From UHGV virus genome UHGV-1335354: a DNA stretch of 16,228 nucleotides; one strand, 5' to 3'. Numbering within the stretch: the stretch's first letter is position 1; every line of letters begins with the position of its first letter. Source of the stretch: a virus. The notes under the pieces were generated by a model. That model made no database searches, was not told where the DNA came from, and saw nothing but the letters and a program-made list of their open reading frames with translations. Below are positions 1 to 13,661 of the stretch, piece by piece. A program made the position numbers and the translations under genes.

Positions 1-55
1 AGAACGAGAGCTTCCCAAGCTCTATACGAGGGTTCGATTCCCTTCGCCCGCTCCA
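1..55 (+). tRNA. glyU: tRNA-Gly (anticodon CCC), 5' part cut by window edge; its 3' end is the attL side of the island
   Basis: Sequence matches the 3' two-thirds of enterobacterial tRNA-Gly(CCC) as I recall it: anticodon loop CTTCCCAAG, T-arm GGTTCGATTCC, acceptor 3' strand CGCCCGC, discriminator and CCA at 53-55. Confidence 0.9.
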
Positions 56-93: not shown

Positions 94-552
94 TGTCAGC
101 AACTTAAACAGTTACCTATTTAATTTGCTTAGGAGTTCTACCATTGTGATCCGCCCTTAGTAACTGTCACGTTAAGTTACACGGTGAGATGACAGTATAA
201 CCTAACGTTGGCGGCAGTTGCACCTCTCACACCGCGATAGCACAACGTGAAGATAAAGCCCATCCTGGCATTGTAATGTCATCGACAGACTGAACACACG
301 CATTTAAGCCCGATGTGCGGCCTTGTGGCTGCGTAAACAGGTTTATGGTGATATTGGTCCTTGCAAACCATATGCAAGCTCTATCAGCGTTTCAGCCACG
401 CTCCCAACGGGTACACGGTTATCCTGATAAGGTGTGATCTTTCTGACAATCTGATGAAGTCGCTACGCTCCCGCTTGTTGCTGTATCACCAACGGGGCTT
501 TATGGTTTCTATTGTCTATAATAATCTCACAATTCCCCTGCATGAGGTTGAT

Positions 553-1765: not shown

Positions 1766-2317
1766 TTACGCTTCCTGCTCTTTCTTGATACGTTGCACCG
1801 TCTGTGTGCTGACACTGAAATCTTTTGCTACGCTCCGAATTGATCCACCATTCGCGAGAGCGGCAACAATTCCCGCTCGATCAATTGCTTTTCCATTACC
1901 ACGTTTTGCTATACGCCCAGCTGCCTTAGCTGCGGCGATCCCTTCACGTTGACGCTCAAGCATCATTTCACGTTCCATTTGTGCCACTGCTGCAAGCACT
2001 GTGAGCATCATATTCCCTGCGGGAGAGTTCTTCCCTGTCTTAAAGTCTTCTTTATGGAAATGCACAGACACGCCGCGCTCTGTTAATTGCTCAACCGTTG
2101 CCAGAAGGTCGGCTGTATTACGGCAAAGGCGATCAATGCTGTGAACATGCAAAACATCACCTTCCCGCACATAGTTCATCATTGCCTCAAACTGTGGGCG
2201 CTGGGTATTCTTGCCTGACGCTTTATCTTCAAAGACTTTATCAAGAGTTACTCCAGCTAATTGACGGTCTGTGTTTTGTTGCACAGTCGATACCCTAATG
2301 TATCCAATATTAGCCAT
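1766..2317 (-). CDS. serine recombinase, small resolvase/invertase type (183 aa)
   Basis: N-terminus MANIGYIRVSTVQQNTDRQ with catalytic Ser at position 10, conserved R/D residues of the resolvase catalytic domain, C-terminal HTH (GGSIRSVAKDFSVSTQTVQRI). AGGA Shine-Dalgarno upstream. Confidence 0.85.
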   Translation of the reverse strand: MANIGYIRVSTVQQNTDRQLAGVTLDKVFEDKASGKNTQRPQFEAMMNYVREGDVLHVHSIDRLCRNTADLLATVEQLTERGVSVHFHKEDFKTGKNSPAGNMMLTVLAAVAQMEREMMLERQREGIAAAKAAGRIAKRGNGKAIDRAGIVAALANGGSIRSVAKDFSVSTQTVQRIKKEQEA

Positions 2318-2551
2318 TTTCTTTATTCCTTCTGTGTTGATTTGTGTGTAGTGATTATTGATCGTGTTGATTAGGTGTGTAAAGGACTTTTTTCACTACG
2401 AAATTCGAAGGTTTTTAGTGTGGTGATTTAGCCTGCTTTATCACTACACGTCTTGCATGAGAATCATGTAGTTACATTTTGGTAAAATTAGCAAGCTATT
2501 AAATAGTGTGTTTATTTTGAAAAAATAATTTTTTGTTGCATTAAAGGAAAC

Positions 2552-2585
2552 TTGTTCAATAAATGGTAGAACATTTATTGAGCAA
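2552..2585. promoter_or_regulatory. 34-bp palindrome (14-bp arms, 13/14 match, 6-bp spacer): candidate protein-binding or recombination site
   Basis: TTGTTCAATAAATG-gtagaa-CATTTATTGAGCAA read from the sequence, ~235 bp upstream of the serine recombinase start. Confidence 0.35.
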
Positions 2586-2940
2586 CAATTTTGCAGTGAT
2601 ACGCTATATGCCGCATTACATAAGGCTTTGCTGATGATAATGTAAAAGTGAAGAAAGTAAGAATTGCACTTTGAAGCTACTTTTCATTGCATTTTTTAGT
2701 ATGGAATTACACGGAATAAACTATGAATATTCTACGATTTACACGAGATATTCTTGCTGTTTAATTCCGGCTTTGGAGATCAGGCATTCGCAAGAATACG
2801 CTAACGCGTTGCCTGAAAAGCCATTGCACATAATAGAGGTGAGCGTATAGCGATACACTAATCATAACAACATCTTCTTACTTTTTAGTTAGTTAGTTGT
2901 TAGTAGGTTATTGTTATGCGCGCTATTAGCGCATGTATAA

Positions 2941-2989
2941 AGGTATCATTTTTATCTAAAGGGGCTTTAGACATTTTTGATACCTTTTT
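2941..2989 (+). terminator. bipartite hairpin (outer 8-bp and inner 6-bp stems) followed by a T-run; candidate rho-independent terminator or structured RNA
   Basis: AGGTATCA...CTAAAG-GGG-CTTTAG...TGATACCT followed by TTTTTC. Confidence 0.35.
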
Positions 2990-3025
2990 CTGTGCAAGAC
3001 ACTTACCAGTGTATAGTGCGGTTTC

Positions 3026-3077
3026 CCTACCTACCCAGGAAATGAGTTCCTACCTACCCAGGAAATGAGTTCCTACA
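3026..3077. repeat. 23-bp perfect tandem direct repeat, 2.3 copies (CCTACCTACCCAGGAAATGAGTT)
   Basis: Copies at 3026-3048 and 3049-3071 are identical, followed by partial copy CCTACA. Confidence 0.9.
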
Positions 3078-3084
3078 ATACTAT

Positions 3085-3106
3085 AATTAAACTACAATTA
3101 AACTAT
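3085..3106. repeat. 11-bp AT-rich tandem repeat x2 (AATTAAACTAC / AATTAAACTAT)
   Basis: Read directly from the sequence, immediately after the 23-bp repeats. Confidence 0.7.
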
Positions 3107-3239
3107 CTTTTATAAATTCTTTTATCTTTTAAAGAATAATTATAGGGATACCCGTTAGGGAGTCTTCGACTATCCCTTAATCTATTGGCATTCGCCAGAA
3201 CCTTGCACAAGTTAGACTGATGCTTGTCATAACAGATAG

Positions 3240-3287
3240 TTTTTGTTTTTTGTTTTTTGTTTTTTGTTTTTTGTTTTTTGTTTTTTG
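3240..3287. repeat. heptanucleotide microsatellite (TTTTTTG), about 7 units
   Basis: G at 3245, 3252, 3259, 3266, 3273, 3280 and 3287 with T6 between each; perfect periodicity of 7. Confidence 0.95.
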
Positions 3288-3943
3288 TTAGTAGTTAGCT
3301 GATCTATGTTCGCTTTCCGCTCACAACGAATATGTAATCTACTATGTGCAAATAGCCTACGGCTTGCGTATGGCTAATAGTCTTGCGCTGTGCGCAGAAC
3401 GATAATTAACTAACTACCATCTAACGATTGAAATTTACTTGTGCAATAACCTGAGCGTAAGCGAATGGTTGTTAGTGTCGCGTTACCCTTTGGGGATGCT
3501 AACGCATAACATGACAAAACAACCAACAACAAAAAAGAAAGAATGGTTTTTGTAGTTGAAGGTTAAATAAGATTCTACCGCTTAAATCAAGCCGTAGGCG
3601 AGCTTAACAGGGTAATGTAAGGGAAACACCTTAGCGGTAATAGATTAGCTCGTTACAGAGCTTCTGAGAACTTTGCAGGTATTTTATAAGATGTCTGAAA
3701 TCAGAGTTTATCTATCCACCATCTTTCCATCATCTGATAAATCAAAAATAAGACCCTTAAATAAGCCTCTGACGAGATAAACAACCTCTACATAAGGGAA
3801 TGTATTGTTTTTATCAAAACCCCGTCAGAGTGCGATTGAGAGCGTTTTAGACAACAGGGAAGAATTGTACCAGAGTAGGCAGCACAAAAAGCTAAGAAAA
3901 ATTATAAGAAATTGAAAATGATCAAATTTTTTATAAAAGAGGG

Positions 3944-3972
3944 TTGACAAAGCCGCCGTTATGTAGTATTGT
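3944..3972 (+). promoter_or_regulatory. candidate sigma70 promoter for the rightward small-gene operon
   Basis: TTGACA (3944-3949), 17-bp spacer, TATTGT (3967-3972); about 115 bp upstream of the first gene. Confidence 0.45.
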
Positions 3973-4088
3973 AAGTAGGGAGGGGAGAAACATCTCTCTC
4001 CATCTAAATAATCAAATCACAGAACACTGCACTTTGAGCCGTCAGGCTGCAAGGTGTGTTTTTCTTTTATCTAAATAAGGAGTTTTTT

Positions 4089-4294: not shown

Positions 4295-4471
4295 ATGAAT
4301 ATTAATTTTGATTCTGCAACTTATAACGCGTTGTTAAATCGTGCAAAGGCAGAAGGGAAATCAATTCCAAAACTTGTTAATGAATTACTAATTACAGTCC
4401 TTACAAAGGAGGAACTAAATGAACCAAAACACCAAAACAATTGCCGAAGCAAAAGCGCAATGCCTCAATAA
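4295..4471 (+). CDS. unannotated small ORF (58 aa), possible ribbon-helix-helix (CopG/Arc-like) DNA-binding protein
   Basis: Hand-translated: MNINFDSATYNALLNRAKAEGKSIPKLVNELLITVLTKEELNEPKHQNNCRSKSAMPQ; GGAGAAGGAG upstream; N-terminal 40 aa resemble an RHH fold by composition; overlaps the next gene by 53 nt in another frame. Confidence 0.4.
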   Translation: MNINFDSATYNALLNRAKAEGKSIPKLVNELLITVLTKEELNEPKHQNNCRSKSAMPQ

Positions 4472-5084
4472 GAAAGATAGTAAACAAACATATGTAGTAG
4501 TTGAACAATGGCTGAAGATGTTTAAAAAGTGGTTCTCACCGTCAGGTAAGGAATACACCGCGACACTTCCAGCCGTTGAAATCTACAGTTACGTAGCTGG
4601 GTTCAATGAACAAGGGCAAGAATGTTACGCCAATCAAAAAACATTAGCTAATATTGGAATGGTTAGTGATCGTCAGGTGCGTAATATTATAAATATGTTT
4701 ATTGATATGGGTGTTCTTTCTGTAGAGGCACGGGACGGGCAAACATCACTCTATAAAGCATTACCCTTTACAGATGCACACATCACACCACCGGAAGACG
4801 TAAAAACCTCTGTAAACGTAGAACAGCCTGCACCTGAAACACAGGAACCGTTAGAAGCGACACACTCTATTGAGCAGGAAACACAGGCAGAAATCACGGA
4901 ACAATCTGATCTTTTTACATGGCTTATTTCCATAGACAGCCAAAAGCCTATGCAAGAAGAAACAGAAAATTTTATAAAACGTGCACTGACCTCGAAGAGG
5001 ATAATTCTTGAAGATGATGCTTTTAATGCACTGATGATAGCCCTGAGAAAAGAAAGTGAAATCTATGACTCAATACCATTTTAA
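4419..5084 (+). CDS. putative winged-helix/HTH DNA-binding protein (221 aa), replication-initiator-like or regulator, with acidic low-complexity C-terminal half
   Basis: AAGGAGG Shine-Dalgarno 7 nt upstream; central segment ECYANQKTLANIGMVSDRQVRNIINMFIDMGVLSV resembles HTH modules of phage/plasmid replication initiators; no Walker motif. Confidence 0.55.
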   Translation: MNQNTKTIAEAKAQCLNKKDSKQTYVVVEQWLKMFKKWFSPSGKEYTATLPAVEIYSYVAGFNEQGQECYANQKTLANIGMVSDRQVRNIINMFIDMGVLSVEARDGQTSLYKALPFTDAHITPPEDVKTSVNVEQPAPETQEPLEATHSIEQETQAEITEQSDLFTWLISIDSQKPMQEETENFIKRALTSKRIILEDDAFNALMIALRKESEIYDSIPF

Positions 5085-5354: not shown

Positions 5355-5557
5355 TCATATTCGATGGCGAATTTTCACAAGAAATCTTTCTGCAATATTT
5401 ACGGGAAAGAACGGGAATGATTCTGTTTGATTCTGAGTTTTCCGGTGTGGTAGGTGAGCAATTTTTATATGCTCTTCTCGATAACCTAAGTAAACAAGGA
5501 TTATTGCAGTATACAAAAACTCATATGAAAGCATTCAGAATCGACTCTGTAGCTTAA
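5339..5557 (+). CDS. hypothetical protein (72 aa), GTG start overlapping the upstream gene
   Basis: Open frame with GTG at 5339 overlapping the preceding stop; no family recognised. Confidence 0.35.
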   Translation: MDDTVIIFDGEFSQEIFLQYLRERTGMILFDSEFSGVVGEQFLYALLDNLSKQGLLQYTKTHMKAFRIDSVA

Positions 5558-6863: not shown

Positions 6864-6872
6864 AGATATACA

Positions 6873-6901
6873 TTGACTTTATAACAAGAATGTTATATAA
6901 T
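6873..6901 (+). promoter_or_regulatory. near-consensus sigma70 promoter with no convincing ATG-initiated ORF downstream
   Basis: TTGACT (6873-6878), exactly 17-bp spacer, TATAAT (6896-6901). Confidence 0.45.
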
Positions 6902-6956
6902 AATAAATATGCTTGGAAGATGATAAAGCAAGGATTGCATATTCTCCAATTATATC

Positions 6957-7316
6957 TTACCTCTGCAGCCTCTTATTGTCAATAAGAAAATCTAAGAGAC
7001 GGCGACCGCCACGATCGCCCATCTCTTTAAAACAGTTTTTAGAAAACATCCTCGTGTTTTTCATTGTTGGGTCTGTTCTGATTAGTTTTTCCCTTTTGGT
7101 AAGCGCGGTAGTTTCATTCCTTTTCTGCCGCTGCTTATTTTCAACAAAGAAAAGTTTTCTAAAAGCTGTTTTATAACAGCCTATACCCCTATAAGTTATT
7201 GAACGTTTCTTGGCTGGGTATATGCCTTGCGGCATAAAATCACTATTAAAATTATGTTTCCAACCCGTAGCAAGTTGAGCGTAGTTGAGTGATTCCTTGT
7301 TATCTGTTCTCGCCAT
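6957..7316 (-). CDS. possible basic protein (119 aa, Lys/Arg-rich); may be spurious
   Basis: ATG-initiated minus-strand ORF, weak and poorly spaced Shine-Dalgarno, rare codons; start codon is embedded in a palindrome; lies antisense to the orphan promoter. Confidence 0.25.
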   Translation of the reverse strand: MARTDNKESLNYAQLATGWKHNFNSDFMPQGIYPAKKRSITYRGIGCYKTAFRKLFFVENKQRQKRNETTALTKREKLIRTDPTMKNTRMFSKNCFKEMGDRGGRRLLDFLIDNKRLQR

Positions 7317-7345
7317 ACCTGATGGGCGTCAGGTTATGAACAGAT
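7302..7345. promoter_or_regulatory. nested inverted repeats (outer ATCTGTTC/GAACAGAT, inner CCTGA/TCAGG): candidate operator or RNA structure
   Basis: Read from the sequence; arms share the CAGAT/CCTGAT motif with the terminator stem at 7431-7477. Confidence 0.35.
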
Positions 7346-7430
7346 AGCGCCTTGCGCCAGTTACACATCCCTTACGGTCGGTGAATCCTAAATAGCCAAC
7401 TACCTGGTAACGGTGCATTGTATTTGAGAA

Positions 7431-7486
7431 AACAGATCAGGAAAGACTTTCCAAAGGGTCTACTCGCCTGATCTGTTCTTCTTTTT
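7431..7486 (+). terminator. long-stem hairpin followed by a T-run: candidate rho-independent terminator
   Basis: Perfect 11-bp stem AACAGATCAGG / CCTGATCTGTT with a 25-nt loop, followed by CTTCTTTTT. Confidence 0.5.
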
Positions 7487-7591
7487 AGAACATATAACAA
7501 TGACTGATCATTCTTATATGCTCTTCTCATGAAAGTATATAATCAATGTTATGCTTAATTCGAACATTAAAACCCCCCTCTAATTAATATA

Positions 7592-7619
7592 GCCAGCCTA
7601 CCCGCTGGCATATTTTTAT
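7592..7619 (+). terminator. short hairpin plus T-run, second candidate terminator before the structural-like operon
   Basis: GCCAGC-ctaccc-GCTGGC followed by ATATTTTTA. Confidence 0.35.
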
Positions 7620-7656
7620 AAGTGGAAAACAAATCTGTTATAAATGGGACCACTCC

Positions 7657-7860
7657 ATGAAAAAACAAGACATGATAATCAGTAAAGACGGGGAAACGAT
7701 GACTGTTAGTGATGAAAACATCCTTAAAGTTGCCGCACTGTTGGGAGTTACTCCCGAAAGTCTTCGCTCTACTACTGAACAATTGTTTAAATCTGCTAAT
7801 AATGCGGAAACACCCGCACAGGCTATTTTAAACCGAATCACACAACTGAAAGGAAAATAA
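7657..7860 (+). CDS. hypothetical small protein (67 aa), first gene of the structural-like operon
   Basis: ATG-initiated; predicted largely helical C-terminal half; scaffold-like role is speculation. Confidence 0.45.
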   Translation: MKKQDMIISKDGETMTVSDENILKVAALLGVTPESLRSTTEQLFKSANNAETPAQAILNRITQLKGK

Positions 7861-7865
7861 TATAT

Positions 7866-8252
7866 ATGGCTAACCCATACGGCGTTAAATTCGCCCCTGT
7901 AAACGCGAGCAATGACCTTGTGCGTTGCAAAATTATCGCCTATTCCGGCGATCCCCTGCTGCAAGACCGTTTAATCACACTGGCGGCACCACTGACAGAA
8001 GATGTTATTGTCGGTGATCTGCTGAAAGCTGATGGCACCAAAGCAACCGCCGCCGCTGATATCGCTTACGTCGCTGTAGAACCTTCGTTTGCAGGTCAGG
8101 AAAGCGTAGTGGTTGCACATCCTACTTTCGTTATTCTGGCGCGTGCTGGTATCGAATTTAACGGCATGGCAGAAGAAAGCGTGATCTCAAAACTGCAATC
8201 TATTGGTTTCGTGATCGCTGGTTATTCCGAAGCTGCAATCCCTACTACTTAA
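7866..8252 (+). CDS. possible phage head decoration-like protein (128 aa)
   Basis: Size, position directly upstream of the capsid-sized gene, and a loose pattern resemblance to lambda gpD/SHP-type decoration proteins; E. coli-like codon usage. Assignment unverified. Confidence 0.55.
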   Translation: MANPYGVKFAPVNASNDLVRCKIIAYSGDPLLQDRLITLAAPLTEDVIVGDLLKADGTKATAAADIAYVAVEPSFAGQESVVVAHPTFVILARAGIEFNGMAEESVISKLQSIGFVIAGYSEAAIPTT

Positions 8253-8270
8253 TATAAGGAAATATAAATA

Positions 8271-9305
8271 ATGAATATTCAAGAATTATTTGGTCGTCAG
8301 GCGAGCGTAGTAAGCCCATTCGAATATGAGCAAGGCTTAAACCTGCTGTTCTCTTCCCTGGAGATCTTTGATAAGCAATCTCACAGCACTAACAGTATTC
8401 TTCTGACTACTGCAATTGAAAGCTTTATGCAGATTGCAAATGAGCAAGAACCCTACGCACAAAGTCAGTGGGACTCAAGCAAGCGCGGCACCTTCTCAAA
8501 CGTAATGTTTGAAATGAAGCACCTTGCAACCATCAACAGCGTGACAAGTCGTGATCTTGAACAGTACAGCCGTAAAAATCTTTCTACTGCTGACTCTATG
8601 CTGCTGGCGATCAATGATTTTGCTAATCAGCATTACCGCTCACATGAGAACGCTGTAGAACGTGATCTGCTGCGTGCAATCCTCACGCTGAAAGTAGAAT
8701 CTCAATTTGCAGGTCAAGGTGATATTGATTTGCTGGAAGGTGACGCTAAAACCGTAGCGCCTGCAATTGACTTCACAAGCACTACCGTAAACCCTTACCG
8801 TGCACTGGCTAAGATTGTTCGTCAACAGTCTAACATTCTGGGCGAATCCCTTGCGGCTAAACGTTCCGGTGTTCTTGTGCTGGCTGCTGGCGGCGCTGCT
8901 GATGGTCTGCGTTACAACGATATGCTGAAAGATCAGGTTGTTTACTCCAGCAATGCACAGGCAAGCGCGGCAGTAACTAAGATCGTAGCTGATAACCCAG
9001 CGTATGATGCTTTCCAGCTTGCACAGGTGACTGTTATTGATGTTAGTGACTTCCCGTCAATCGTTGCAGAAATCGGTGAAAATGGTTTGGTTGTGATCCC
9101 GCTGTTCCCTGCTGATGTTCAAGCTTACGTGCTGCATACAGGCGTCGCGGTCCGTCATGCCGAACACGGTAAAGATGCGGAAACACATCACCAATATCTG
9201 ACACAGGATCAGTTTATGTTCCCGTCAGTGTGCACCGAAACGGCTTACCTGCCATTCATTCAGAAAGTAGTTGCTAAAGCGATTATCTTCTCTGAAGCAC
9301 AGTAA
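8271..9305 (+). CDS. possible major capsid protein of the lambda gpE-like family (344 aa)
   Basis: AAGGAA Shine-Dalgarno; length matches gpE (~341 aa); N-terminal segment QELF...FEYEQGLNLLF resembles the gpE N-terminus as I recall it; follows the decoration-like gene as in lambda D-E order. No alignment run. Confidence 0.6.
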   Translation: MNIQELFGRQASVVSPFEYEQGLNLLFSSLEIFDKQSHSTNSILLTTAIESFMQIANEQEPYAQSQWDSSKRGTFSNVMFEMKHLATINSVTSRDLEQYSRKNLSTADSMLLAINDFANQHYRSHENAVERDLLRAILTLKVESQFAGQGDIDLLEGDAKTVAPAIDFTSTTVNPYRALAKIVRQQSNILGESLAAKRSGVLVLAAGGAADGLRYNDMLKDQVVYSSNAQASAAVTKIVADNPAYDAFQLAQVTVIDVSDFPSIVAEIGENGLVVIPLFPADVQAYVLHTGVAVRHAEHGKDAETHHQYLTQDQFMFPSVCTETAYLPFIQKVVAKAIIFSEAQ

Positions 9306-13631: not shown

Positions 13632-13661
13632 GGGTTTCCTCGATTCCCTTCGCCCGCTCCA
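13632..13661 (+). repeat. attR: direct repeat of the tRNA-Gly 3' end
   Basis: 13640-13661 is identical (22/22) to tRNA positions 34-55 (TCGATTCCCTTCGCCCGCTCCA); upstream GGGTT also matches with a 3-4 bp insertion. Confidence 0.85.

What the first reader, a model, noticed from the sequence alone, without database searches (positions are those of the whole stretch)
7302..7477. Family of inverted repeats sharing a CAGAT/CCTGAT core across 170 bp
The same core appears in the nested palindrome at 7302-7345 and in the perfect 11-bp stem at 7431-7477. Reuse of one motif in several inverted copies suggests multiple binding sites for one dimeric protein (repressor or recombinase) or a conserved multi-stem RNA. 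The site lies immediately upstream of the structural-like operon, where a late-gene control element or packaging/recognition site would sit.
Basis: seen in the sequence. Interest (0 to 1): 0.5.

Follow-up and report, generated by a model that had tools for sequence, protein, structure and literature searches.

The report
Hairpins of a large leader RNA
The two inverted repeats are real. They are two conserved stem-loops of a roughly 700-base structured RNA, not in Rfam, that sits between a strong promoter and a terminator in front of the capsid genes of a little-studied E. coli mobile island, and they are not repeated protein-binding sites.

Summary
Both inverted repeats exist as described. IR1 has an outer stem at 7299-7309/7338-7348 and an inner stem at 7317-7323/7328-7334. 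IR2 is a perfect 11-bp stem at 7431-7441/7467-7477. They share AACAGAT and CCTGA.

They lie in a 790-bp non-coding gap of a 13.6-kb att-flanked E. coli island. The gap starts with a near-consensus sigma-70 promoter (6873-6901). It ends with an intrinsic terminator (about 7587-7619), 40 nt before the first gene of a capsid-type operon.

About 350 of 5,426 complete E. coli genomes carry such a gap, in three sequence types. Each type folds into the same series of hairpins. In 20 relatives, 98% of pair cells are paired and 40 of 56 pairs show compensatory double changes. G.U pairs outnumber A.C 86 to 8, which points to an RNA read from the + strand. IR2 is helix 4 of that alignment. IR1 is the hairpin that follows a conserved GUGAUUCCU motif.

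The shared core is not conserved: relatives change one hairpin without the other. Rfam has no match.

The most likely role is a cis-acting structured leader that gates read-through into the capsid operon. A stand-alone large ncRNA is the main rival. A separate operator-like palindrome pair, AACA-N4-TGTT, flanks the leader.

The parts
6873..6901 (+). Leader promoter: TTGACT, 17-nt spacer, TATAAT. The predicted start is near 6908.
   Evidence: Matches 11 of 12 consensus positions. A promoter occupies the same place, directly after the early operon, in leader types A, B and D.
6881..6896 (.). O1: the 16-bp palindrome ATAACA-AGAA-TGTTAT, lying between the -35 and -10 hexamers.
   Evidence: One of only two exact AACA-N4-TGTT sites in the window. 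Across all leader types the arms are kept and the spacer varies.
6908..7619 (+). Predicted structured leader RNA or ncRNA of about 710 nt. The ends are inferred from the promoter and terminator, not measured.
   Evidence: Folding z-score is -7.0. The region is non-coding: frameshifting indels separate it from a relative that is about 91-93% identical. It is 84% identical to L010, whereas the adjacent 128-aa protein is only 73% identical. Rfam has no match.
7033..7172 (+). 5' domain closed by a long-range helix of about 20 bp (7033-7052 with 7154-7172).
   Evidence: Present in the MFE and centroid folds. The equivalent helix, ACAGUGAUUUUUAGAAA / UUUCUAAAAACACUGU, appears in the RNAalifold consensus of type D.
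7289..7297 (+). Conserved single-stranded motif GUGAUUCCU that precedes hairpin Pa.
   Evidence: Present in types A, B and D. A second, degenerate copy, GUGAAUCCU, lies at 7381-7389.
7299..7348 (+). IR1, which is hairpin Pa: an outer stem, an internal loop, and an inner stem at 7317-7323/7328-7334.
   Evidence: Position 7306/7341 reads G-C in the window, G.U in L002 and A-U in L010. The inner stem changes C-G to G-C in L010. The outer four pairs align with Pa of types B and D and are 96.9% paired, with GC, AU and GU at the closing pair.
7349..7422 (+). Middle hairpin specific to type A (CCAGUUAC...GUAACGG). It stands where types B and D have the short hairpin Pb.
   Evidence: A G.U pair in the window becomes A-U in L002 and L010 (GCGCC or GCACC paired with GGUGC).
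7425..7483 (+). IR2, which is the long hairpin Pc. In type A only, it is followed by a U-rich run at 7479-7486.
   Evidence: It is helix 4 of the covariance-model alignment, where 13 of 17 pairs show changes on both sides and 98% of cells are paired. The apical UUUCCAAAGGG is shared by types A and D.
7487..7524 (+). Hairpin Pd, AU-rich: AUAUAACAAUGA / UCAUUCUUAUAU.
   Evidence: I3. It is helix 7, with 14 of 17 pairs changed on both sides.
7587..7619 (+). Intrinsic terminator: GCCAGC-CUACCC-GCUGGC, extended by A-U pairs, followed by a U run.
   Evidence: Every leader type has a strong hairpin plus U run 40-50 nt before the first late gene.
7626..7641 (.). O2: the palindrome AAAACA-AATC-TGTTAT, between the terminator and the ribosome-binding site. 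It holds the fifth ATCTGTT copy.
   Evidence: In L010 the 4-nt spacer is the reverse complement (GATT) while the arms are kept.
7657..7860 (+). First gene (67 aa) of the capsid-type operon. It is followed by ORFs of 128 aa, 344 aa (remote gpE-like) and 82 aa, a 615-aa tape-measure-like protein, and a 225-aa Dit-like protein.

Best explanation
IR1 and IR2 are two helices, called Pa and Pc here, of a long and highly structured RNA transcribed from the + strand. The RNA starts at a near-consensus sigma-70 promoter (6873-6901). It ends at, or reads through, an intrinsic terminator (about 7587-7619) that lies 40 nt ahead of the capsid-type operon of a 13.6-kb integrative, satellite-like E. coli island.

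What is shown: the repeats are conserved as base-paired stems and not as sequences. Selection therefore acts on RNA folding within each hairpin. The motif that the two hairpins share is specific to this sequence type and is not a functional repeat.

What is inferred: the leader acts in cis as the control region of the late operon. There is no room for another promoter between the terminator and the start codon, so the capsid genes have to be reached from the leader promoter by reading through the terminator. The folded leader is proposed to decide, probably with a protein from the island or a helper phage, whether RNA polymerase stops there. In type A, IR2 plus its U run may add a second, partial stop.
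For: Architecture. The promoter, the terminator and the + strand late operon are in line. The same layout holds in three sequence types that BLAST barely aligns to one another outside short patches.

Non-coding status. The minus-strand ORF 6957-7316 is broken by indels in a relative that is about 91-93% identical.

Structure.
- Each of 22 variants folds on its own into the same series of hairpins: Pa, Pb (or the middle hairpin in type A), Pc and Pd.
- A covariance model built from type D alone recovers types B and A.
- On that alignment 98% of cells are paired, against 36-48% when partners are slid by 1-3 columns.
- 40 of 56 pairs carry changes on both sides.
- The covariation score is 0.473, against 0.04-0.10 for slid partners, and 0 of 500 shuffles reach it.

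Strand. G.U cells number 86 and A.C cells 8.

IR1 specifically. The pair 7306/7341 goes G-C, G.U, A-U, and an inner-stem pair goes C-G to G-C, within type A. Its outer stem aligns with Pa of types B and D.

Read-through is required. In type B the O2 palindrome abuts the start codon, which leaves no space for a separate promoter.

Thermodynamics. The fold z-scores are -4.6 for 7290-7500 and -7.0 for the whole leader.
Against: No transcript data are available, so the RNA ends are predictions.

The CM-derived alignment is fitted to the model's structure, which inflates the paired percentages, although the effect is far larger than the controls.

No conserved alternative pairing that would melt the terminator was found. 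A classical self-contained attenuator is therefore not supported, and a trans factor has to be assumed.

Seven hundred or more nucleotides of conserved structure is much more than known cis terminator-control leaders need, which favours the stand-alone-RNA rival.

The U run after IR2 is absent in types B and D, so a terminator role for IR2 is at best specific to type A.

The family is confined to E. coli, which limits the depth of the comparison.
Confidence: 0.5

Rival explanations
1. The leader is mainly a stand-alone, stable, large non-coding RNA. It is made from the promoter, ends at the terminator, and has its own function. Candidate functions are a trans-acting regulator of island, host or helper genes, or an RNA that assembles or binds capsid or helper components. 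IR1 and IR2 would then be architectural helices of that RNA. Expression of the capsid operon would be a secondary read-through event.
For: The structure is conserved along the full length, from about +8 to the terminator, and includes a long-range helix of 20-25 bp. A strong terminator is conserved in all types. Single-stranded motifs are strictly kept: GUGAUUCCU, the loop GCAUCCAC, and CUCCUAAG(A/C)G. The size, 0.7-0.9 kb, far exceeds what known leaders need. There is precedent for phage late-promoter short transcripts acting as regulatory RNAs (StxS, PMC7547250) and for large ornate RNAs linked to prophages (GOLLD and ROOL, PMC12286853).
Against: No target could be identified. The one complementarity found was between the Pc loop and a block next to attL. 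That block is missing from island copies integrated at other sites, so it is probably chance. There is no expression data. The position directly ahead of the operon, on the same strand and with no other promoter, argues that at least part of the role is in cis.
Confidence: 0.3
2. A type-A-specific attenuator that uses the shared core. The 5' arm of IR1 (AUCUGUUC) would pair with the 5' arm of IR2 (GAAAACAGAU) as an antiterminator. That pairing would compete with IR2 plus its U run as a terminator.
For: There is a 10-nt, 90% complementarity between 7302-7311 and 7428-7437 (I15). A U-rich run follows IR2 in type A only. The clustering of the motif is non-random.
Against: L010 keeps IR2 and the U run but has changed IR1 to GUCUAUUC/GAAUAGAU, which removes the complementarity. 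The alternative duplex is about 8 AU-rich pairs, whereas IR1 and IR2 dominate both the MFE and centroid folds. Types B and D show no such relation.
Confidence: 0.07
3. DNA-level sites: the repeats are operators or recombination sites for a dimeric repressor, the island's serine invertase or its integrase.
For: They show dyad symmetry and a repeated core. The island encodes a Hin/Pin-type invertase (1766-2317) and a tyrosine integrase. Each IR2 arm contains a GATC.
Against: The arm spacing of 25-28 nt does not fit a dimer operator. The arm sequences are not conserved while pairing is. G.U tolerance is found on one strand only, 86 against 8. All 22 homologous gaps have the same orientation, so nothing between the arms or between O1 and O2 is seen inverted. 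The arms look nothing like the hix/gix crossover sites as I recall them (own knowledge; not scanned). A true operator-like palindrome with conserved arms lies elsewhere, at O1 and O2.
Confidence: 0.04
4. Packaging (cos or pac) signal, or a single-strand DNA origin whose hairpins form in DNA.
For: The position ahead of head genes resembles cos of lambda-like phages. Hairpins in ssDNA tolerate G.T pairs.
Against: The best match to lambda cosN has 3 mismatches, which is no better than chance, and related loci have no match within 1 mismatch. There are no iterons. The promoter and terminator on the same strand explain the strand bias without invoking ssDNA. No terminase gene was identified in the island: none of the ORFs scanned matched a terminase above threshold, and only a weak 0.0028 small-terminase hit fell within the invertase.
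Confidence: 0.04

Closest known systems
Lambdoid late-promoter leader (PR' - 6S RNA - tR'), including the Stx-phage StxS RNA (PMC7547250)
   Same: A strong promoter, active unless repressed, sits directly ahead of the late or structural genes. Its transcript stops at an intrinsic terminator before the first late gene, so late expression needs read-through. The terminated product can itself be a functional RNA.
   Different: The lambda 6S leader is much shorter (about 0.2 kb from memory), whereas this leader is about 710 nt in type A and up to 0.9 kb in others, and folded throughout. No Q gene was found in the island. The palindrome between -35 and -10 is dyad-symmetric, which is not my recollection of the Q-binding element (own knowledge). 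There is no sequence similarity to any phage in the collection.
Satellite P4 PLE leader with CI RNA, and P1/P7 C4 antisense RNA (Rfam C4)
   Same: This is a satellite element in which a leader RNA with reused complementary segments controls premature termination of its own operon.
   Different: No C4 or CI match was found even at E up to 10. The reused motif here is not co-conserved between hairpins. The island has no P4-type primase, sid, delta or psu genes.
HK022 put RNA (cis-acting, RNA-only processive antitermination)
   Same: Conserved stem-loops in a nascent leader act in cis on the polymerase that made them, ahead of terminators.
   Different: As I recall, put is two hairpins of about 70 nt just after the promoter. 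Here there are at least eight helices over 700 nt, and no similarity was tested or seen. This is an analogy only.
Large ornate bacterial ncRNAs linked to prophages: GOLLD and ROOL (PMC12286853)
   Same: They are several hundred nucleotides long, densely structured, supported by covariation, found in phage-type elements, and of unknown function.
   Different: There is no Rfam match: the GOLLD model gives 9.5 bits against a gathering score of 150. The distribution is confined to E. coli islands. The position is fixed, in front of capsid genes.

Membership tests
Structured RNA element (cis-leader or ncRNA) on the + strand | Helices are maintained by compensatory substitutions across homologues | tested here: met
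   40 of 56 pairs carry double changes and 98% of cells are paired, against 36-48% with slid partners. IR1 shows G-C, G.U, A-U at one pair and C-G to G-C at another. Its outer stem aligns with types B and D.
Structured RNA element (cis-leader or ncRNA) on the + strand | Strand asymmetry: G.U pairs are tolerated and A.C pairs are not | tested here: met
   86 G.U cells against 8 A.C cells out of 959.
Structured RNA element (cis-leader or ncRNA) on the + strand | The region is actually transcribed, with defined 5' and 3' ends | not testable with these tools
   Only promoter and terminator predictions are available. There is no RNA-seq data.
Any described RNA family (Rfam 15) | The score reaches a family's gathering threshold | tested here: not met
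   Types A, B and D were searched at E up to 10. Every hit was below 20 bits, far under its threshold.
Intrinsic terminator (IR2 plus U run) | A stable stem is followed at once by a U tract | tested here: met
   An 11-bp perfect stem is followed by CUUCUUUUU at 7478-7486.
Intrinsic terminator (IR2 plus U run) | The U tract is conserved along with the hairpin in homologues | tested here: not met
   Types B and D keep the hairpin but follow it with ACCCUUUAAG or ACCCCUCAAGGG.
   Spacers are 25-28 nt. Arms drift with compensation. The shared core is lost in L010 and in types B and D.
P4 CI / P1 C4-type RNA immunity | Homology to the C4/CI RNA, and co-conserved complementary segments of the seqA/seqB/seqC kind | tested here: not met
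   There is no Rfam hit, and the complementary cores are not co-conserved.
Self-contained attenuator at the conserved terminator | A conserved upstream segment is able to pair with the terminator's 5' arm | tested here: not met
   Duplex energies against shuffled arms give z-scores near 0 in 13 leaders. The window-specific 12-nt match between 7212-7223 and 7587-7598 (I6) has no equivalent in type D; within type A it is retained in L002 and persists with a 1-nt bulge in L010.
Serine-invertase crossover sites | Sites flank a segment that is found in both orientations | tested here: not met
   All 22 homologous gaps are collinear.
Lambda-type cos site | A cosN-like sequence | tested here: not met
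   The best match has 3 mismatches, with 5 hits found against 3.6 expected. Related loci have none within 1 mismatch.

The most novel reading that the evidence does not exclude
The 0.7-0.9 kb region is a new class of large, ornate non-coding RNA specific to capsid-encoding E. coli satellite-like islands. On this reading it does more than stop transcription. It might sense a helper-phage or island factor, act in trans, or take part physically in particle assembly. IR1 and IR2 would be two of its conserved architectural helices.
Probability: 0.3. Interest if true: 0.8.

Novelty: new variant of a known kind. Interest (0 to 1): 0.6.

Why it matters
Large bacterial RNAs supported by covariation are rare. 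Most known examples, such as OLE, GOLLD and ROOL, occur in organisms that are hard to work with, and their function is unknown. This one is in E. coli, in about 6% of complete genomes, at a fixed place in a small mobile island that carries its own capsid, tape-measure-like and Dit-like genes and has not, as far as I could find, been described. It would give a tractable system for asking how a satellite-type element times its structural genes, and whether a long folded leader does more than terminate transcription. It also corrects RefSeq annotation: a 'hypothetical protein' on the opposite strand overlaps the RNA and is probably not a gene.

Tried and rejected
- **Known RNA families.** Rfam searches of the window and of leader types A, B and D found nothing.
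- **Similarity to phages or plasmids.** DNA searches with type A and type D leaders against phages and with the type A leader against plasmids found no match. A tblastn of the 344-aa protein against phages also found none.
- **Wider relatives.** The protein pattern scan of GTDB genomes found none. The 128-aa protein has only E. coli relatives. The DNA pattern scan of metagenomes gave 55 loci, of which 9 were real relatives (8 type D and one identical copy of the window leader) and the rest chance. None of the 11 viral contigs was real.
- **cos site.** A partial CGGCGACC match near 7000 and a GGGGGCGACCTC in type D Pc looked like lambda cosN, but neither is better than chance nor positionally conserved.
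- **Trans target.** The Pc loop CUCCUAAG is complementary to GCTTAGGAGTTC at window 126-137 (the 8-mer CTTAGGAG starts at 128). That block is tied to glyU-integrated copies and is absent from copies at other sites, and type A lacks the loop motif. The match was rejected as probably chance.
- **Antiterminator pairing with the terminator.** Not conserved.
- **Coding potential of ORF 6957-7316 (minus strand).** Rejected because of frameshifts in L002.
- **MAFFT alignment across types.** It misaligned Pc and Pd, so a covariance-model alignment was used instead.
- **An 'any 7-mer' clustering control.** It was dominated by low-complexity words and was not used.
- **Literature.** Three searches for a description of this island or RNA found nothing relevant.

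Full report
**Observation.**
- IR1 has 9-bp perfect outer arms (7301-7309 TATCTGTTC and 7338-7346 GAACAGATA, I14). Folding extends these to 11 pairs. They enclose an inner 7-pair stem, 7317-7323/7328-7334.
- IR2 is a perfect 11-bp stem, 7431-7441 AACAGATCAGG and 7467-7477 CCTGATCTGTT (I7).
- The arms share AACAGAT/ATCTGTT and CCTGA. AACAGAT occurs 8 times in the window against 2.8 expected, and 5 of those lie within 7302-7639. None of 100 Markov simulations exceeded 2 copies in 340 nt.
- Taken alone, an 11-bp inverted repeat is not remarkable: 16% of simulations have one.

**Context.**
- The window holds a 13.6-kb element bounded by a perfect 22-nt direct repeat of the tRNA-Gly 3' end (34-55 and 13640-13661).
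- It carries a Hin/Pin-type invertase (1766-2317, minus strand), an O-like replication protein (4419-5084) and small + strand ORFs up to 6863.
- A + strand operon then starts at 7657. It encodes proteins of 67, 128, 344 and 82 aa, a 615-aa tape-measure-like protein and a 225-aa Dit-like protein. A tyrosine integrase follows on the minus strand.
- In relatives, the gene at the place of the 344-aa ORF hits Pfam Phage_cap_E. The window protein aligns with it end to end at 18% identity, E = 1e-4.
- The element occurs at glyU, thrW and yciQ/rluB in different strains. It is therefore mobile and satellite-like.
- I found no description of it in the literature.

**The gap.** The finding lies in a 790-bp gap, 6864-7656.
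- RefSeq annotates a minus-strand ORF there. Against the relative L002 (about 91-93% identical by DNA) the region differs by about ten frameshifting indels, and that genome has no such annotation.
- The gap opens with TTGACT-17-TATAAT (6873-6901, 11 of 12 consensus positions) on the + strand.
- It closes with a hairpin plus U run at 7592-7619.
- Every related island has an unannotated gap of 0.8-1.0 kb at the same place.
- The gaps fall into three sequence types, which BLAST aligns to each other only in short patches. Type A comprises the window, L002 and L010. Types B and D are the other two.
- Together the three types are present in about 350 of 5,426 complete E. coli genomes.
- Within type A the gap is 84% identical between the window and L010, while the adjacent 128-aa protein is only 73% identical.

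**Evidence for RNA structure.**
- Within type A, the IR1 pair 7306/7341 is G-C in the window, G.U in L002 and A-U in L010. The closing pair 7302/7345 becomes G.U. An inner-stem C-G becomes G-C in L010.
- Each of 22 gap variants, folded on its own, gives the same order of hairpins after a conserved GUGAUUCCU: Pa, Pb (or a larger hairpin in type A), a long Pc, and an AU-rich Pd.
- A covariance model built only from type D finds type B at 64-106 bits and type A at 29-37 bits. The window hit is at 7378-7528.
- On the resulting alignment, 98% of 959 pair cells are standard pairs, against 36-48% when partners are slid by 1-3 columns. Of the 56 pairs, 40 have changes on both sides. The covariation score is 0.473, against 0.04-0.10 for slid partners and 0.18 for shuffles, and 0 of 500 shuffles reach it.
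- That alignment is fitted to the model, which inflates the numbers. The margin is nevertheless very large, and the single-sequence folds agree independently.
- G.U cells outnumber A.C cells 86 to 8. The paired strand is therefore the + strand, the one with the promoter and the terminator.
- IR2 is helix 4 of this alignment. Of its 17 pairs, 13 have double changes.
- The model deleted Pa and Pb in type A because of the type-A insertion. A direct alignment of the flanks places IR1 exactly at Pa. Its outer four pairs read AUCU/AGAU in the window and type B1, GUCU/AGAU in L002 and L010, GCCU/AGGC in other type B loci, and GUCU/AGAC in type D. They are 96.9% paired.
- The 5' half is structured as well. 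A 20-bp long-range helix, 7033-7052 with 7154-7172, recurs with different sequence in type D.
- The whole leader folds with z = -7.0.
- Rfam has no match for any type.

**The shared core.** It is not a conserved property.
- L010 has changed both IR1 stems, to GUCUAUUC/GAAUAGAU and ACGUGA/UCACGU. Its IR2 keeps CAGAUCAGG/CCUGAUCUG.
- Type B loci combine Pa and Pc variants freely: AUCU with AGAUAUUCC in L003, GCCU with AGAUAUUCC in L085, and GCCU with AUCAGAUCUUAG in L082.
- Type D has GUCU/AGAC with GAAUAACAGG/CCUGUUAUUC.
- The AACAG/CUGUU part of IR2 is ancestral to the base of Pc. The extended IR1 stem is specific to type A.
- The alternative pairing that the shared core would allow (IR1 5' arm with IR2 5' arm, I15) is weak and is lost in L010.
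- Selection therefore acts within each hairpin and not between them.

**How it probably works.**
- Shown: the helices and the strand.
- Predicted: the promoter and the terminator.
- Inferred: in type B the palindrome O2 abuts the start codon, and in all types only about 40 nt separate the terminator from the ATG. The capsid operon must therefore be reached from the leader promoter by reading through the terminator.
- I found no conserved upstream segment that could compete with the terminator stem. A trans factor, from the island or a helper phage, is therefore more likely than a self-contained attenuator.
- The closest functional analogy is the lambdoid PR'-tR' arrangement, whose terminated product can itself be a regulatory RNA (StxS, PMC7547250).
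- The length and full-length conservation of the fold go beyond what such leaders need. A stand-alone large ncRNA, in the spirit of GOLLD and ROOL (PMC12286853), therefore remains a serious rival.
- In type A only, IR2 is followed by a U-rich run and may act as an extra partial terminator.

**A real operator candidate nearby.** AACA-N4-TGTT occurs exactly twice in the window: between -35 and -10 of the leader promoter (6881-6896), and between the terminator and the ribosome-binding site (7626-7641). Both sites are present in all three types, with conserved arms and variable spacers. In L010 the O2 spacer is reverse-complemented. That is how protein operators behave, and it is the opposite of how IR1 and IR2 behave. 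The fifth ATCTGTT copy, at 7633-7639, is the right half of O2 plus part of its spacer.

**Verdict.** The protein-site half is wrong for these repeats, though not for the neighbourhood. The element is best filed as a new, unusually large variant of a late-operon leader RNA with no described relatives. My confidence that IR1 and IR2 are RNA helices is about 0.9. My confidence in the cis read-through-control role is about 0.5.

Noticed in passing
window 6881-6896 and 7626-7641: These are the only two exact AACA-N4-TGTT palindromes in the window. One lies inside the leader promoter spacer and the other just before the ribosome-binding site of the first late gene. They are conserved in all leader types, with fixed arms and variable spacers, so they look like an operator pair for an unidentified dimeric protein, possibly looping out the 745 bp between them.
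   Followed up: partly
window 34-55 and 13640-13661: A perfect 22-nt direct repeat, TCGATTCCCTTCGCCCGCTCCA, of the tRNA-Gly 3' end. [quoted passage not shown] The same island family sits at thrW (L090) and between yciQ and rluB (L002) with other integrases.
   Followed up: partly
window 6957-7316 (minus strand; RefSeq WP_406865919.1 in L001): An annotated hypothetical protein overlaps the structured leader on the opposite strand. It is disrupted by indels in a relative that is about 91-93% identical, so it is probably not a gene. The 'ACP S-malonyltransferase' name on the 67-aa ORF at 7657-7860 has no support from Pfam or NCBIfam, where the ORF had no hits.
   Followed up: yes
window 2318-4055: A second long stretch, 1.7 kb, between the DNA invertase and the early operon, without convincing ORFs. 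It contains a perfect 23-nt tandem duplication (3026-3071, CCTACCTACCCAGGAAATGAGTT twice) and several inverted repeats (2556-2581, 2749-2798, 2939-2987, and 3340-3366 with 3588-3614). It may hold the invertase target, the origin or early control sites.
   Followed up: no
L012 (Logan ERR10766091 contig, 13,649 nt): This contig carries a type D leader and the same capsid, tape-measure-like and Dit-like operon. It has a 30-nt terminal overlap, meaning a circular assembly of about 13.6 kb, and no called gene on it has an integrase or invertase Pfam hit. It encodes a superinfection-immunity-type protein instead. It may be an episomal relative.
   Followed up: partly
window 7022-7035: CATCTCTTTAAAAC resembles the boxA element (GCTCTTTAA) that loads Nus factors and protects long untranslated RNAs from Rho. 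Similar but weaker matches lie at the same place in types B and D. The element is too short to judge.
   Followed up: no
window 7289-7297 and 7381-7389; L003, L004 and L012 Pc internal loops: The motif G(U/A)GAUUCCU recurs two or three times per leader in unpaired positions. Pyrimidine-rich loops that resemble the anti-Shine-Dalgarno sequence, CUCCUAAG(A/C)G, are strictly conserved in Pc of types B and D. They may be protein- or RNA-binding motifs.
   Followed up: partly
window 5461-5497 and 7510-7546: A direct repeat with a 15-nt identical core (TTATATGCTCTTCTC) links a site inside the early operon to the 3' side of hairpin Pd. About 0.1 such matches are expected by chance in the window, by my own rough estimate.
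   Followed up: no
L090 8159-8856; L003 10251-11479; L085 3082 onward: Several copies of the island carry IS elements: IS1 in the leader, IS2 in the capsid gene and IS3 after the 128-aa gene. Part of the population is therefore decaying.
   Followed up: no
window 7866-9305: The 128-aa and 344-aa ORFs occupy the positions of lambda D (decoration protein) and E (major capsid protein). They are very remote from known phage proteins. Their type-specific replacements in relatives are only 18-27% identical, although the leader architecture is kept.
   Followed up: partly
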